The notes beneath the pieces are model-generated. The model did no database searches, had not been told where the DNA came from, and was given only the letters and a program-made list of their open reading frames with translations. A stretch of 64,000 nt of DNA, from positions 1,084,546 to 1,148,545 of the forward strand of contig CAWJTQ010000002.1 in NCBI GenBank assembly GCA_963845695.1. The letters are read 5' to 3'. Positions 1-64,000 of the stretch are shown here, piece by piece. Each line of letters opens with the position of its first letter. Positions within the stretch are counted from its first letter, which is position 1. The translations under genes were made by a program, and so were the position numbers. The stretch comes from an uncultured Isosphaeraceae bacterium. Its GTDB lineage: Bacteria > Planctomycetota > Planctomycetia > Isosphaerales > Isosphaeraceae.

Positions 1-188
1 AATTCCCGGGTCGACCTGCTCGAGCGCAAGGGGAGGTCGATCCCGCTGGCAGAAATCCAGAGCGTTTCGCCGTACAGCGTGACGGTCTACAATGAAAAAA
101 AGATCACTCATCCCGAATACGACTTGGTGATCGAGACCCTCGGCCAACCGCTCCAAGTGGGCCAAAGTTGCCAAGGGCGCTGGAAGTG
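1..188 (+). CDS. 3' end of a window-truncated ORF of unknown function (...VGQSCQGRWK*)
   Basis: Frame 1 from base 1 translates to an arginine-poor peptide ending at TGA 186-188. No domain recognised. The first 15 nt look like a cloning linker (see findings). Confidence 0.3.
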
Positions 189-229
189 AACGGAAAGCCC
201 CCGCACGGCTGGAACCCCAGGTCGCTTCT

Positions 230-2013
230 TCAGACCGAGTCGGGATCGTCCGGCGGCTTAACCGGCGAGAGGGCTCGGATGCGACGGACTTGCTGACCAT
301 TGAGGAAGCCCAGGACGACCAGCACCGGCAGGATGACGTTGGGGTAGTGGTTGCTGTCGGTCAGGCCACCGCGACGCCAGGTATCGAAGGCGAGTGCGCC
401 GTAGCCCAGCATCGAGATCGCCGTCGTGAACCAGACAACACGGATGCGATTCCACAAACCCGAGGCGGCGATCAACAGGGCGTAGCCGAGGACCAGCGAG
501 CTGTTGACGGCGCCGAGCAGCCCGAGGATGGCGGTCAAGAGCGCGACGTCGATCGTCATCCAGGCCATGCGCACGCTGTCGGAGTCTTGCTCGCTTCGAG
601 CGACGCGTCGGAGGACCAGGGCGGAGGCCCACAACCCCTCGACGATCGAGACGCCCCAGTGGATGCGCGCATTCGGCGGCGGGGTGCATGAGGAAATCGA
701 GCTGGGTCAGGGCGAGGATCAGCGATTGACCGACAAGCCGGCAGGCGAACCCCGGCTCGCGGCGAGCCCAGCGCCAGAGGCGTCGGAGCGGTCCGGAGCG
801 TCGGGCGTGGATCCCGTCACCACGGAGGAATCGTTCGAGGTCGGCGGTCAGGTCGGCGGCCGAGGGATACCGGTGCTCGGCCCTCTTTTCGAGGCACTTC
901 AGGCAGATGCACTCCAGGTCCATGGGGGCCTCTGGGCGGATCCGCCGCGGCGGGGTCGGCTCCTGCTCGATGAGCTGAGCGAGGGTCTCGTCGACCGTCG
1001 CGGCGCGGAACGGGGGCCGGCCGGTCAGGAGCTGATACAGGATCGCACCGAGACTATAGATGTCGGCCGCCGGGCCGATCCGGCCGCCGACGGCTTGCTC
1101 GGGTGCCATGTAGGACGGCGTGCCCAGCACGGCGCCGGAGGCCGTCAGGTTGCTGGCCCCCTCCTCGGCCCGCTTGGCCAGCCCGAAGTCGGTGATGTGG
1201 GGCCGACCCGCCGGATCGATCAGGATATTCGAAGGTTTGAGGTCGCGATGGATCAGCCCGCGACGATGCGCATGATGGACCGCCTGCGCGATCGAGACCA
1301 TTAACGCCGCGGAGCTCCTCGGGTCCCCAACGAACCGGCCCAAGTGCCGCCCGAGGTCCTTTCCCTCGATCAGCTTCATCGTGTAGAACGCATGACCCTG
1401 GTGTCGGCCCACTTCGTAGATCGTGACGATGTGCGGATGGTCGAGCCGTGCGGCCGCTTCCGCCTCGACGCGAAACCGGCGGACCTCGGCCTCGGACGCG
1501 AACGGCCCGGCGAGGATCATCTTCAGCGCCACGATCCTGTTCAGGCTGAGGTGACGTGCCTTGTAAACCACTCCCATCCCACCGCGGGCCAGCTCCTCGA
1601 CGAGTTCGTAGTCTCCGACTCGCCGGACCCGACCGAGGTCGGGGACGGCGGAGGATCGCATGTCCGAATCGCGCGAGGCTGCCAATCGTGACGGTGCGCC
1701 CCTGGCGAAACCACAAGCCGAACGCGTCCTCGACAATCTCGAGACTCTCGGGGAAGCGGTCGCGGTAATCGGTCACGAGCGGCTCGTCACCGGAGTCGCT
1801 TCTCAGCTCCAGTTCTAGTGAGAGGAGTTCGAATAGAAGGATCGGGCGAGTCAGGCCACTGACGGCGTCCAGAAAGGACTCGATTCGCGGGGCACCGCCG
1901 GCGCGCCAGGCCGATTCGAAGCGGCAGCACACGTCGTCGATGCGAACCGCGTCGGCGGCCGGGGGCCGTCGCGCCCGGTTCGTCGGCGCGGCGATTCGCG
2001 TCACGTCGTTCAT
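230..2013 (-). CDS. Hanks-type Ser/Thr protein kinase with a kinase N-terminal leader of a type I recall from planctomycetal kinases and C-terminal TM segments; frameshifted in this sequence
   Basis: ATG at 2013 ([10 protein letters not shown]...) encodes [13 protein letters not shown]...LLFELL, a kinase N-terminal region of a type I recall from planctomycetal Ser/Thr kinases. After a frame change near 1690 the kinase core follows: [51 protein letters not shown], then [12 protein letters not shown] second frame change near 640-690 leads into 4 predicted TM helices (ORF 230..634). Confidence 0.8.
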
Positions 2014-2744
2014 ACCGCTTCCTCCTCGTCCCAGAGCTGGCGGATGAGCTCGAGCCGGCGGGCGACGGTCCGGCGCGCGCAACCGAGCCGATCGGCGATC
2101 TCGTCGGAGGTATATCCTTCCATCCGCTCCAGAGCGATCCGGCGGAGCTGGTCGTCGCCCAGTCGGTCCAGGAGCCGGCGGAACTCCTCGGCCATCATCG
2201 CGGCGAATTCCGGTGTGGGCTCCGGGCCGACCAGCTCGGCGAGCGGGTCACCGTCGCGGTCGTTCCAGTTGTGTGCGGGGGCGCCGCGATCGACTCGCAA
2301 CCTCATGCCCCCGCGCTTCCAGGCCCGGCGCCGATCGACCTGCGCCGAAGCCTTCCGCGCGGTGATCACGACCAGCAACCGCCAGAGGTCCTCGCGGTCC
2401 GCCAGCACGGGGAACCGTCCGCGGGCCAGCCCTGCGCAAAAGCTGTCAAAGGCGCTCAGGGCCGCATCTTCCTCGTCCTCGTCGGCACCGGCACAAAGCG
2501 CCAGTCGCGCCCGCGCCAGCCGGACCAACCGCCCGAAATAACGCTCCCAGAGCGCCTGAGCTGCGTGCGGGTCGCCTAGCTTCAGTCCGTCAATCCATTG
2601 CGTGACAGATCCCTCGTCCCGAGGCACGGTCGCATCCGCATCGGGCGAGGCCAAATCGGGATTCTGTGGCACGGCGTCGAGCCCTTTTCCCAGATACTGT
2701 CCGGATCGAAACCACGCGGGGCCCGTCATCAGGCCCCCGGTCAA
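2010..2744 (-). CDS. ECF-type RNA polymerase sigma factor (sigma-70 family) co-transcribed with the Ser/Thr kinase
   Basis: Sigma-70 region 2-like [19 protein letters not shown] and region 4 HTH ([31 protein letters not shown]). The stop TGA at 2010-2012 overlaps the kinase ATG at 2011-2013 (ATGA overlap). Confidence 0.75.
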
Positions 2745-3002
2745 CCGCCAACGACGGCAGGTCGGCCACTCCCTCCGTTATCGACATCCCTCCGCAGAGG
2801 AATGGAGATCTCCCGTGACCGCCATCCATCCGCTACCTCGCTCCACGGCGGCGCCCGATCTCGGAACGCGCCGATCCCCCCCGGCCTTCCGTGATGGCGA
2901 AACCCGATGTTCGGCAGGCACAGGCATCCTCTCCTCACCGGGAAATCCAGCCGGCCGACGGTTTGCCGTGCGGGAGTATAGCGAATCTCTCCGGCGTGGC
3001 AA

Positions 3003-61734: not shown

Positions 61735-62002
61735 CGCCGCGGCGCGGCCCGGATCTCGTCATTCTAGGCCAGGCGATCAAGTTTTCACCACGGGATCCGA
61801 TCCCCTCGATTTGCCGGCGCCCGGTTGTCGATCGTATAATAAACTGAATCCGAATCTTCTCCTGGTCTCGAGCGGTCGTGGACGTCGGCACAGAATGGCG
61901 CTGGCGATGGGTGATCGAGCGGTCCTCATCCCGGTAGACCTGTATCATTCATACCCTCCGCCGACTGGTCCGCGACTAGACCCTAACGGGTGGAATATCG
62001 CG

Positions 62003-63524
62003 ATGGCACTCCCCAAGGTCGTGATCGTGGGCCGACCCAACGTCGGCAAGTCTTCGCTGTTCAACTGGCTGGCGGGTCGAAAGATCGCCATTGTGGACGA
62101 CATGGCCGGGGTCACCCGCGACCGAGTTGGAGCGCTGGTGCAACTCGGAGATGACACGGATCCGCGGTTCATCGAGCTGATCGACACTGGCGGGATCGGC
62201 ATGGTCAACCGCGACGACCTCAGCGAGGATGTCGAGCGCCAGATCGACACCGCCATGGGCGAAGCCGATCTGATCCTCTTCGCCGTCGACATCCGCGACG
62301 AGCTGATGCCGCTGGATGAGGAGGTGGCCCATCGCCTCCGCTATCTCAAGACACCCGTGATCCTGGTGATGAACAAGGCCGACTACCCCGGCCTGGACCA
62401 TCGCGGCGCCGAGTTCTACAAGCTGGGCCGGGGCAAGCCAATCGCCGTCTCGGCCCAGCAGAATCGCAACAAGAAGCAGTTATTGCAGTGGATCGAAGAG
62501 ATGCTGCCGCCGCCCGACGCGACCCGACCGGCCGATAGCGAGATGAAGATCGCCGTGGTCGGCCGGCCCAATACCGGCAAGTCGACCCTGATCAACACCC
62601 TGGCGCGGACCGAGCGAATGATCGTGTCCGAGCGGCCCGGCACCACCCGCGACTCGGTCGACGTCCGCTTCGAGCTCGACGGGGTGCCGTTCCTGGCCAT
62701 CGACACGGCTGGCGTCAAGCGCAAGGCACGGATCCGCGACAGCCTCGACTTCTACTCGATCCACCGCGCCGAACGCTCGATCCGCCGGGCCGACGTCGTC
62801 CTGATGTTCCTCGACCCCACTCAGGGGATCACCAAGCTCGACAAGCAACTGGCTGATTATGTCGCCCAGCAATACAAGCCCTGCATCTTCACGATCAACA
62901 AGTGGGACACCATGCTGGGCGTTCCCTCCGACCCGTCGCAGGGAGCTACCAGCCGGTTCGCCTACCTCGTCCAGCACTCGTTTCGCACCATGACCTACAT
63001 GCCGATGGCGTTCATCACCGCCAAGACCGGCAAGAACGTGAAAGCCCTGTTGAACCTCTCGCAGTCGCTGTACAAGCAATCGCTCAAGCGAGTGAGTACC
63101 GGGACGCTCAACCGGGTCTTGCGCGAGGCCGTCGAGGCCCATCCACCCGCCTCCCGTGAGAATCGCACCCCGCGGATCTACTACGCGACCCAGGTTGAAC
63201 GTGGCGCCGCCGACGATCGTGCTGTTCGTCAATAGTACCCGGCTGTTCGACCAGACCTACCAGCGCTATCTCCTCAATATCTTTCGCCAGAAGCTCCCGT
63301 TCCGCGATATCCCGATCAAGCTCTACATGCGCTCCCGCAAGCAAGTCGAGCCGGGGAGTCGCTCGTCGTCGGACGGGCTCGATCAGGCCCACGAGTTCGT
63401 CGATACGGACCAGATCGGAATCACGGCCGAACGGCGCGTTCCCGCACACGCCGGCGGAGCAGATCCCTCCCTTCGGTTCATCAACCACGAGGTCAACGAG
63501 TTGCTGGCCGACCTGGACGTCTGA
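62003..63524 (+). CDS. der: Ribosome-biogenesis GTPase Der (EngA), tandem GTPase domains plus KH-like domain; indel near 63195
   Basis: Two G1 boxes (GRPNVGKSS and GRPNTGKST), with DTGG/DTAG and NKAD/NKWD motifs. The C-terminal part continues in ORF 63156..63524. Confidence 0.85.
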
Positions 63525-63700
63525 TTTCGGTGTTCCGCCTTGGCTCGTGACTCGTTCAATCGAAGAACGACTCATCCGAGTTGGCCGTGGAGTCGCGCGC
63601 CAAAGCCTTGTAAGATCGGAGGAGTCGGGTGGAAATCGACGAACATCAGGAATTGGGGCGGGCGGATCGTGAGCGACCGTCCCGATCGGGAGAATTCGAC

Positions 63701-64000
63701 CATGCAACGACTCTCGAGACGTGACCTGCTCCACCAAGCCGCCCTGACGCTGACCGCCGGAGGCGTCGTCGTGGCGGCCGGTCAACCCGCGCGGGCGGTT
63801 CCGCCCATCGGCCGGACCCGTCCCAGCCATCTCAAGCTCAGCATCGCCGCGTATTCCTATCGACAGTATCTCACGGGGAAGCCGCCCAAGACTCGACCTG
63901 TTCGACTTCGTCAACCTGGCCGCCGACATGGCCCTCGACGGCGTCGAGCCCACGTCGTACTACTTCCCGCCCGAGGTCACGTCCGATTACTTGAATCGGC
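63701..64000 (+). CDS. Tat-signal sugar phosphate isomerase/epimerase (xylose-isomerase-like TIM barrel), window-truncated; frameshift near 63885
   Basis: MQRLSRRDLLHQAALTLTAGGVVVAAGQPARA twin-arginine signal, then HLKLSIAAYSYRQY...LDLFDFVNLAADMALDGVEPTSYYFPPE. Confidence 0.55.

What the first reader, a model, noticed from the sequence alone, without database searches (positions are those of the whole stretch)
1..64000. Pervasive single-nucleotide indel frameshifts in conserved genes: likely sequence-quality problem rather than pseudogenization
**Affected genes (at least 20).** The kinase (x2), GH5, ahcY, the RbsC-like permease, nadB, the giant repeat gene (x2), the FAD/Fe-S fusion (at least 2), the RRM protein, the Gfo/Idh/MocA oxidoreductase (at least 2), the ABC-2/GldG-like cluster (at least 4), ilvC, exbB, exbD, der and the sugar phosphate isomerase all change frame.

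**Nature of the events.** Where reconstructable the event is a 1-nt loss or gain, often in a short homopolymer:
- GG to G at 6017 and 44677.
- CCCC to CCC at 58470.
- Extra C at 21975.

**Interpretation.** Essential genes (ahcY, nadB, ilvC, der) are hit, so these are almost certainly consensus errors, either homopolymer-type errors or from a low-coverage clone. All CDS boundaries in this window are therefore approximate.
Basis: partly seen in the sequence, partly recalled or inferred. Interest (0 to 1): 0.5.

Follow-up and report, generated by a model that had tools for sequence, protein, structure and literature searches.

The report
Assembly indel errors breaking many genes
About a third of the genes in this 64-kb stretch of a planctomycete genome are broken or garbled by at least 32 small insertions and deletions. 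These look like consensus errors of the assembly, not real gene decay, so the finding is an artefact worth flagging but not a biological discovery.

Summary
The frameshifts are real in the sequence and more numerous than reported. I mapped 33 events in 19 of roughly 52 genes; 32 are supported by homology or repeat phase and one is tentative. They comprise 21 single-base insertions, 10 single-base deletions, one 2-nt deletion and one +13-nt repeat glitch. Four of them form two compensated pairs hidden inside an ORF that looks intact.

Undoing each event restores full-length proteins that are 81-100% identical to intact orthologues on two contigs of JGI metagenome 3300064109.

The evidence points to consensus error, not gene decay:
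- There are no in-frame stop codons in 9,655 aligned codons.
- Segments now out of frame have dN/dS 0.13, against 0.15 for unbroken genes.
- Core genes (ilvC, ilvN, der, nadB, ahcY) are hit.
- Two related long-read-style MAG contigs carry the same kind of damage at different sites.

The homopolymer detail does not. Indels are not enriched at base runs, none lies at any of the 136 runs of 5 or more bases, and 14 of 16 placed insertions are a base unlike both neighbours, often TG to TCG.

Raw reads were not available, so the verdict is indirect. Interest is low.

The parts
672..686 (-). +1 insertion in the Ser/Thr kinase, C-terminal membrane region
   Evidence: frameshift-aware alignment to the intact 590-aa orthologue of L092. 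C in a CC pair. The codon model switches frame at 673.
1635..1638 (-). +1 insertion in the kinase, just upstream of the kinase domain (CCT[C]GG)
   Evidence: Pkinase domain found.
3792..3795 (+). -1 deletion in GH5 (ATTCA^TGGG; the relative has C here)
   Evidence: The Pfam Cellulase domain spans the junction.
6008..6017 (+). -1 deletion in ahcY (CCC to CC, or GG to G)
   Evidence: AdoHcyase_NAD positions 1-162 of 162 span the junction. 422 of 449 residues match L092.
8405..8411 (-). +1 insertion in the TPR-like gene; compensates the deletion at about 8503
   Evidence: seen with 7 of 7 homologues. The codon model switches frame at 8399.
8500..8506 (-). -1 deletion in the TPR-like gene
   Evidence: The corrected patch RCVADMLPGRRSETLATIAAAQKK matches homologue P0365.
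9012..9021 (-). -1 deletion in the TPR-like gene; compensates the insertion at about 9097
   Evidence: seen with 5 of 7 homologues.
9088..9097 (-). +1 insertion in the TPR-like gene (CT[C]G or a G-run)
   Evidence: The corrected patch GAHDEALQAAGLADIN matches the homologue's GAHDKALQAARQADIN.
17003..17013 (-). -1 deletion in the RbsC-like permease (CCC GG^ATC)
   Evidence: The BPD_transp_2 domain spans the junction. Reading of the frames. The codon model switches frame at 17007.
21976..21980 (-). +1 insertion in nadB (ACG[C]CGC)
   Evidence: NadB homologue from L045. FAD_binding_2 positions 1-414 of 414 span the junction.
26085..26125 (-). Net +13 nt in the 66-nt repeat array of the giant gene (14-nt tandem duplication CAATCCCCACAGGR with one base missing)
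   Evidence: the phase of the QGN motif changes here.
26985..26992 (-). -1 deletion in a repeat unit of the giant gene (CCGGGC to CCGGC)
   Evidence: compared with neighbouring repeat copies.
33655..33662 (-). 2-nt deletion in the FAD/Fe-S fusion (CGCGCC to CGCC; RA lost from NSLRAGRG)
   Evidence: 938 of 1016 residues match the intact 1020-aa orthologue P0121.
35356..35360 (-). +1 insertion in the FAD/Fe-S fusion (CCCA[G]TTCG)
   Evidence: FAD-oxidase_C positions 2-248 of 248 span the junction.
43574..43577 (+). +1 insertion in a 239-aa hypothetical gene, next to a one-codon difference from the relative
44671..44673 (+). -1 deletion in the RRM protein (GCGC^CAAG; the relative has GCGCGCAAG)
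   Evidence: All 121 aligned residues are identical to the relative after correction.
48532..48538 (-). +1 insertion in the Gfo/Idh/MocA oxidoreductase (CTC[G]ATC)
49004..49011 (-). +1 insertion in the Gfo/Idh/MocA oxidoreductase
49165..49187 (-). -1 deletion in the Gfo/Idh/MocA oxidoreductase (CCCG^GGC; the relative has A)
51566..51572 (+). +1 insertion in the ABC-2/GldG fusion (GGC[G]TTC)
   Evidence: the same site with 7 homologues.
51615..51624 (+). +1 insertion in GldG (GAG[C]GAT)
51655..51658 (+). +1 insertion in GldG (AGC[T]CCG). Together with the previous two it restores the frame.
52004..52010 (+). +1 insertion in GldG (CTCA[G]CTACC)
52323..52329 (+). +1 insertion in GldG
52486..52489 (+). 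+1 insertion in GldG (GAT[C]GCA)
52751..52760 (+). +1 insertion in GldG (GT[C]GGA)
56005..56008 (+). -1 deletion in ilvN (GGG to GG)
   Evidence: 190 of 197 residues match the relative.
56581..56584 (+). +1 insertion in ilvC (ACT[C]GCG)
   Evidence: 330 of 333 residues match the relative. KARI_N positions 2-165 of 165 span the junction.
57867..57870 (+). +1 insertion in exbB (CCT[C]GAG)
58471..58474 (+). -1 deletion in exbD (GCC^CTG; third base of a Pro codon)
61317..61320 (-). +1 insertion in a 173-aa hypothetical gene (CTCG[A]GCG)
63195..63198 (+). +1 insertion in der (GTT[G]AAC)
   Evidence: for the reading of the frames. The alignment to Der of PDB entry 2hjg is continuous to the last residue. 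KH_dom-like positions 1-81 of 81 span the junction.
63885..63890 (+).
   Evidence: Codon model and three-frame reading. The fragment is too short for family models.

Best explanation
The window comes from a draft assembly of an Isosphaeraceae-like planctomycete. It is most likely a metagenome-assembled genome built from long, error-prone reads. Its consensus was left with about one small indel per 1-2 kb.

Each indel shifts the reading frame of whatever gene it falls in. As a result, gene callers emit fragments or, where two or three indels cancel out, 'intact' proteins with garbled patches. The organism's real genes are intact.

The errors are not the classic homopolymer miscounts. Two thirds are insertions of a single base that differs from both neighbours, often creating a CpG (TG to TCG). 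This points to a consensus, polisher or base-caller failure mode (inferred, not shown). The deletions sit in short G/C runs or GC-dinucleotide repeats.

**What is shown:**
- The position and type of the indels.
- Full restoration of every gene on single edits.
- Absence of any signature of decay.
- The same defect in sibling assemblies.

**What is inferred:**
- The sequencing platform.
- Low coverage.
- The mechanism that generates the insertions.
For: - **Lineage.** The closest relatives are Isosphaeraceae and Planctomycetota MAGs.
- **The source is a large public contig that I could not retrieve.** Proteins 100% identical to window ORFs exist in the public protein collection, attributed to one 1,818,463-bp NCBI/ENA contig. 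That contig could not be fetched.
- **Event count.** 33 events were mapped.
- **Restoration.** After correction, proteins align end to end with intact orthologues:
  - RRM 121 of 121 residues
  - IlvC 330 of 333
  - IlvN 190 of 197
  - AhcY 422 of 449
  - FAD/Fe-S 938 of 1016
  - GldG 762 of 941
  - The frame-joined GldG and FAD/Fe-S proteins each align over most or all of their length (at least 85% of the query) with 120 listed relatives of normal length.
- **No nonsense codons.** 0 in-frame stops in 9,655 aligned codons.
- **Selection unchanged.** dN/dS is 0.133 in out-of-frame parts, 0.154 in unbroken genes and 0.194 in in-frame parts.
- **Sibling assemblies.**
  - L091 (ENA ERZ25039518 contig_27, 1.61 Mb) has 12 frameshifts at other sites in the same genes, including DUF1015, which is intact in the window.
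  - The Nanopore-only MAG L001 has 2-3 (pipeline described in PMC12313526).
  - The JGI contigs have none.
- **Literature.** Long-read assemblies are known to carry gene-fragmenting indels (PMC12007338).
- **Insertion signature is non-random and shared with L091**.
Against: - No raw reads, coverage or quality values could be examined, so the indels were never shown to disagree with the underlying data.
- No independent assembly of the same strain or species exists in the searched collections. The best DNA identity found is 83-91%.
- The error profile is unlike what the literature describes as typical for long-read consensus. It is insertion-rich and non-homopolymer, whereas PMC12007338 describes mostly homopolymer-associated indels. 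The platform attribution is therefore uncertain.
- The +13-nt change in the repeat array could be a genuine repeat variant.
Confidence: 0.93

Rival explanations
1. The indels are real. The organism is undergoing massive recent gene decay (pseudogenization), as in newly host-restricted bacteria.
For: - 19 of about 52 genes are disrupted, a proportion seen in genomes in reductive evolution (own knowledge: Mycobacterium leprae, Sodalis).
- The sequence as given does contain the indels.
Against: - There are no nonsense codons in 9,655 codons against 27 indels.
- No large deletions or IS elements disrupt genes.
- dN/dS of out-of-frame segments is 0.133, the same as or lower than intact genes.
- Seven indels accumulate in one gene whose protein sequence is still 81% identical to relatives throughout.
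- Core biosynthetic and ribosome-assembly genes are hit.
- Insertions outnumber deletions 2 to 1. Bacterial mutation is deletion-biased (own knowledge).
- A related contig shows the same phenomenon at entirely different sites, which is not expected for shared biology.
Confidence: 0.03
2. These are artefacts specifically of the homopolymer-miscount type (454, Ion Torrent or older Nanopore).
For: A few deletions are compatible with shortening of a run:
- GGG to GG at 56005 and at about 26990.
- CCC to CC possible at 6011.
- CCCC to CCC possible at 58473.
Against: - There is no enrichment at runs. For runs of 3 or more, 11 of 33 events against a background of 0.41. For runs of 5 or more, 0 of 33, although 136 such runs are available.
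- 14 of 16 placed insertions are a base unlike both neighbours, against 54% expected for random insertion.
Confidence: 0.04
3. The extra bases arise when a consensus is built over co-assembled strain variants or ambiguous calls (for example T versus modified C before G). Both alternatives are kept, so TG or CG becomes TCG. This is a specific mechanism within the artefact explanation.
For: - 5 of 16 insertions are T[C]G, and 1-2 are the reverse complement C[G]A.
- 10 of 16 create a CpG, against a null expectation of 0.13.
- At 52757 relatives carry either GCG or GTG.
- Collapsing alleles is documented to create false frameshifts in another system (PMC8445201).
Against: - The pattern was noticed post hoc.
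- In ilvC and exbB the C alternative would change a conserved Cys or Leu, so a natural C/T polymorphism is unlikely there.
- No read data were available.
- L091 shows T[C]G only once in 11 insertions.
Confidence: 0.25
4. The frameshifts are real and are bypassed by programmed ribosomal frameshifting or transcriptional slippage.
For: None beyond the presence of the frameshifts in conserved genes.
Against: - The sites lie in GC-rich, non-repetitive contexts with no slippery heptamers and no long A/T runs.
- Orthologues in relatives have no frameshift at these positions.
- Both +1 and -1 shifts occur, along with a 2-nt loss.
- Sites differ between related contigs.
Confidence: 0.005

Closest known systems
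Gene-fragmenting indel errors in long-read (Nanopore or PacBio) assemblies (e.g. PMC12007338; NCBI's 'many frameshifted proteins' assembly flag, own knowledge)
   Same: - There are many 1-nt indels splitting otherwise conserved genes.
- Single-base edits restore the genes.
- Sibling long-read MAGs show the same (L091; L001, made with Flye plus one Medaka round according to PMC12313526).
   Different: - The literature describes errors as mostly homopolymer-associated, with deletions prominent.
- Here insertions dominate (21 against 10), avoid homopolymers and favour CpG-creating contexts.
- The platform of the window's own assembly is not known.
Consensus artefacts from collapsing sequence variants (mosaic diploid assemblies, PMC8445201)
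   Same: False frameshifts are created when nearby variants or repeat-length differences are merged into one consensus. This could explain the T[C]G insertions and the +13-nt repeat glitch.
   Different: That precedent is a diploid eukaryote. Strain mixture in this sample is only conjectured.
Pseudogene-rich bacterial genomes in reductive evolution (Mycobacterium leprae, Sodalis glossinidius; own knowledge)
   Same: A high fraction of genes have disrupted reading frames.
   Different: Those genomes also show nonsense mutations, deletions, relaxed selection and loss of synteny. None of these is seen here.
Transcriptional slippage rescuing frameshifted genes in endosymbionts (own knowledge: Tamas et al. 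2008)
   Same: Frameshifts occur in conserved genes that are nevertheless functional.
   Different: That mechanism requires long poly(A/T) tracts at the shift site. No such tract occurs at any of the 33 sites.

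Membership tests
Assembly or consensus indel errors | A single small edit at each site restores a full-length, conserved protein. | tested here: met
   Corrected proteins are 81-100% identical to intact orthologues over their full length.
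Assembly or consensus indel errors | No other signs of inactivation: no nonsense codons and no relaxed selection. | tested here: met
   There are 0 stops in 9,655 codons. dN/dS is 0.133 in out-of-frame parts and 0.154 in intact genes.
Assembly or consensus indel errors | The defect tracks the assembly, not the lineage. Comparable assemblies have it at different sites and other assemblies lack it. | tested here: met
   L091 has 12 events at other sites. L001 has 2-3. JGI loci L089, L090 and L092 have none.
Assembly or consensus indel errors | Raw reads or an independent assembly of the same strain contradict the consensus at the sites. | not testable with these tools
   The source contig could not be retrieved. 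No relative above about 91% DNA identity was found.
Homopolymer-type sequencing errors | Indels are concentrated in base runs, more so in longer runs. | tested here: not met
   no enrichment, and 0 of 33 events at runs of 5 or more although 136 exist; 14 of 16 insertions are singletons.
Genuine pseudogenization or reductive evolution | A mixture of frameshifts, nonsense mutations and deletions, with dN/dS rising towards 1 in dead genes. | tested here: not met
Genuine pseudogenization or reductive evolution | Core single-copy genes are spared, or an alternative copy is present. | tested here: not met
   ilvC, ilvN, der, nadB and ahcY are all hit. Second copies elsewhere in the genome could not be checked.
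Programmed frameshifting or transcriptional slippage | A slippery motif or long homopolymer at the site, and a site conserved in relatives. | tested here: not met
   Site contexts. Orthologues are unshifted.

The most novel reading that the evidence does not exclude
The indels are truly present in the organism's DNA. This would be a very recent burst of mostly +1, CpG-creating single-base insertions (for example from an unusual mutational process), tolerated through some unknown recoding or population-level complementation. A milder variant is that the T[C]G insertion signature marks sites of a cytosine or thymine-like base modification that misleads the base caller. That would make the error pattern a read-out of an unknown DNA modification motif.
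Probability: 0.02. Interest if true: 0.8.

Novelty: not a real feature. Interest (0 to 1): 0.08.

Why it matters
**Practical importance.**
- All gene models in this window, and presumably on the whole 1.8-Mb contig, are unreliable.
- About a third of the genes would be called as fragments or pseudogenes.
- Proteins predicted from 'intact' ORFs can still carry wrong-frame patches. The public protein P0364 is one such case.
- Anything downstream built on this sequence would be biased: completeness estimates, pseudogene counts, pangenomes, protein clustering and metabolic reconstruction.

**Guidance for the rest of the scan.** Other 'odd' features reported from this window should be discounted unless they survive frame correction. 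Examples are split genes, short ORFs, overlapping ORFs and apparent gene fusions or fissions.

**A minor technical point.** The errors are insertion-rich and non-homopolymer, so homopolymer-aware correction would not repair them. Reference-guided or read-based polishing is needed.

Tried and rejected
- **GC3 frame plot**: too noisy. I replaced it with a self-trained codon-usage Viterbi. In the 48-60 kb region this found 12 of the 14 homology-confirmed sites. It gave one false positive elsewhere, in the Gly-rich tail of the RRM protein at 44812.
- **Hard ORF bounds around junctions**: too wide in 64% GC DNA to locate the events.
- **Exact-product look-ups to fetch the source contig:** all failed, although its proteins are in the collection.
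- **Scans for an independent copy of the same strain** (genome and metagenome collections): the best relatives were 53-70% protein identity. Closer relatives came only through protein searches followed by contig look-up.
- **Stop-to-stop ORFs of relatives as alignment queries:** these gave spurious 'frameshifts' in their non-coding N-terminal extensions. I kept only events that were internal and consistent across homologues.
- **Family models for the isomerase fragment at the window end:** no usable hit.
- **C/T strain polymorphism as the source of the T[C]G insertions:** not established, because at ilvC and exbB the C alternative would break conserved residues.
- **Clustering of events along the window:** weak (variance/mean 1.5, p = 0.09). 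Detection sensitivity differs between regions, so I draw no conclusion from it.

Full report
**What the window is.** The window is 64 kb at about 63-64% G+C. Its genes have their closest relatives in Isosphaeraceae and other Planctomycetota.
- Proteins 100% identical to two window ORFs are in the public protein collection. One of them (P0241) is attributed to a single 1,818,463-bp NCBI/ENA contig.
- That contig could not be fetched.
- It is not among the species representatives or metagenome contigs that were scanned.

**Checking the observation.**
- A codon-usage Viterbi trained on the window's own long ORFs predicted many same-strand frame switches.
- Joining the frames and scanning Pfam showed single domains running straight through the junctions. 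Examples:
  - AdoHcyase_NAD, positions 1-162 of 162
  - FAD_binding_2 of NadB, 1-414 of 414
  - KARI_N of IlvC, 2-165 of 165
  - KH_dom-like of Der, 1-81 of 81
  - RRM_1, Cellulase, BPD_transp_2, FAD-oxidase_C and the two Gfo/Idh/MocA domains
- The frame-joined GldG (926 aa) and FAD/Fe-S (1017 aa) proteins each align over most or all of their length (at least 85% of the query) with 120 listed relatives of normal length, up to 82% and 92% identity.

**Precise mapping.** Contig look-ups on those hits gave close relatives with intact genes.
- They come from JGI metagenome 3300064109: contig Ga0599166_0000169 (L089 and L090) and contig Ga0599166_0000872 (L092).
- They are colinear with window 33.5-37.3 kb, 41.0-63.1 kb and 0.3-11.6 kb at 83-91% DNA identity.
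- I wrote a protein-to-DNA aligner that allows frameshifts and ran the relatives' proteins against the window.
- More distant homologues served for the TPR gene and nadB. A solved Der structure sequence served for der.
- The giant repeat gene was resolved from the phase of its own 66-nt repeat.

**Result of the mapping.**
- There are 33 events in 19 of about 52 genes: 21 +1 insertions, 10 -1 deletions, one 2-nt deletion (about 33661) and one net +13-nt change in the repeat array (about 26100).
- The event at about 63888 is tentative.
- GldG alone has seven insertions.
- The 566-aa ORF 8009-9709 looks intact but contains two insertion/deletion pairs. Between the members of each pair, about 30 codons are read in the wrong frame. 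The public protein P0364 reproduces these garbled patches.
- In the 28,965 nt aligned in these frameshift-aware runs there are 27 events, about 1 per kb.

**Real decay or artefact?** Five lines of evidence favour artefact.
- After correction the proteins align end to end with the relatives:
  - RRM 121 of 121 residues
  - IlvC 330 of 333
  - IlvN 190 of 197
  - ExbD 135 of 143
  - AhcY 422 of 449
  - FAD/Fe-S 938 of 1016
- There is not one in-frame stop codon in 9,655 aligned codons.
- Nei-Gojobori dN/dS against the relatives:
  - 0.154 for genes without frameshifts
  - 0.194 for the still-in-frame parts of frameshifted genes
  - 0.133 for the 2,823 codons that are now out of frame
  - In ilvC, the 208 codons after the shift have dN = 0 at dS = 0.41.
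  - Purifying selection has therefore acted on the 'dead' parts throughout the divergence. The shifts are either extremely recent or not in the organism.
- Genes normally indispensable to a free-living bacterium are hit (ilvC, ilvN, der, nadB, ahcY).
- The phenomenon follows the type of assembly rather than the lineage.
  - L091 (ENA ERZ25039518 contig_27, 1.61 Mb) has 12 frameshifts in the seven genes (about 9.6 kb) where the window has 4, all at different sites. DUF1015 is split in three there but intact here.
  - L001 is a Nanopore-only Flye plus one-round-Medaka MAG of the Microflora Danica project (PMC12313526). It has 2-3 frameshifts in the region where the window has 14.
  - The JGI contigs have none.
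  - Gene-fragmenting indels are a documented property of long-read assemblies (PMC12007338).

**Nature of the errors.**
- A run of 3 or more bases lies within 4 nt of 11 of 33 events, against 41% of random positions.
- No event touches any of the 136 runs of 5 or more bases.
- With the close relatives, 16 insertions could be placed at nucleotide level.
  - 14 of the 16 are a base unlike both neighbours (54% expected, p = 0.005).
  - 10 of the 16 create a new CpG (13% expected).
  - 5 of the 16 are TG to T[C]G (1.8% expected). These p-values are post hoc.
  - L091 shows the same singleton bias, 10 of 11.
- Deletions are more conventional:
  - GGG to GG at 56005 and at about 26990.
  - Losses inside GCGCGC at 44671 and 33661.
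  - Single non-repeated bases at 3793 and 49174.
- The cause of the insertion signature is unexplained. Candidates are confusion between T and a modified C before G, or both alleles of a variant being kept when strains are collapsed. A precedent for collapse artefacts is PMC8445201.

- 21975: agrees with my mapping.
- 6017: the location is right but the lost base is ambiguous.
- 58470: the location is right but the lost base is undeterminable.
- 44677: misplaced by about 5 nt. The true lesion is the loss of a G in GCGCGC, giving ...SAQVIQDR... as in the orthologue, which is identical at all 121 aligned residues.

**Alternatives.**
- Genuine pseudogenization is contradicted by the absence of nonsense codons, the unchanged dN/dS, the insertion bias and the site differences among related contigs.
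- Programmed frameshifting or transcriptional slippage is contradicted by the contexts, which have no slippery motifs or A/T tracts. It is also contradicted by unshifted orthologues and by mixed +1, -1 and -2 events.
- A residual possibility of about 2% is that the indels are real. Only reads or resequencing can exclude it.

**Verdict.** The interpretation as a sequence-quality problem is supported, but the errors are not homopolymer-type. This is not a biological feature. Its value is as a warning attached to every other finding from this window and to the proteins derived from this contig.

Noticed in passing
window 1638, 48535, 52486, 52757, 56581, 57867 (and L091 3574): There is a recurrent insertion type, TG to T[C]G, or its reverse complement C[G]A. 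10 of 16 placed insertions create a CpG, far above random expectation. The cause is unknown: a base-caller or polisher bias, a base modification, or collapse of strain variants.
   Followed up: partly
window 8009-9709 (-): A TPR-like gene is absent from relatives L091 and L092 at this position. Its public protein record (P0364) contains two wrong-frame patches caused by compensated indels.
   Followed up: yes
window 45015-48141: This 3.1-kb stretch next to tRNA-Arg (48143-48217) has only about 0.8 kb of counterpart in the colinear relative L090. It has a low coding score and only small ORFs such as 46059-46595 and 46941-47261. It may be a small inserted island.
   Followed up: partly
window 23152-29481 (-): A giant secreted or membrane protein carries about 31 tandem copies of a 66-nt unit encoding PQGNNTPQGNNTPQGNPQPGNP (24893-26962, continuing to 27178), plus further Pro/Gly/Gln-rich repeats. 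Its N-terminal 820 residues are 31% identical (258 of 823 aligned residues) to an ORF in L045.
   Followed up: partly
L091 1-11920 (ENA ERZ25039518 contig_27) and L001 4100-16300: Two other public MAG contigs of this lineage also carry frameshift errors: 12 in L091 and 2-3 in L001. One in-frame stop occurs in L091 GH5 at 6264. Fragmented proteins from them are therefore in public databases.
   Followed up: yes
window 30674-32572 vs L091 2-1907; window 33457-37316 vs L089: There are rearrangements among close relatives. The Band_7 gene lies beside the kinase in L091 but 30 kb away in the window. The FAD/Fe-S locus is inverted and about 21 kb away on the JGI contig.
   Followed up: no
window 36700-37183 (-): A small Cys-rich protein lacks 22-24 residues that are present in the L089 orthologue. 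The difference is in frame, at a duplicated HPEVIDHS motif, so it looks like a genuine repeat-length difference rather than an error.
   Followed up: no
window 235-2672 (-): An ECF sigma factor gene sits directly upstream of the Ser/Thr kinase. The pair is conserved in L091 and L092.
   Followed up: no
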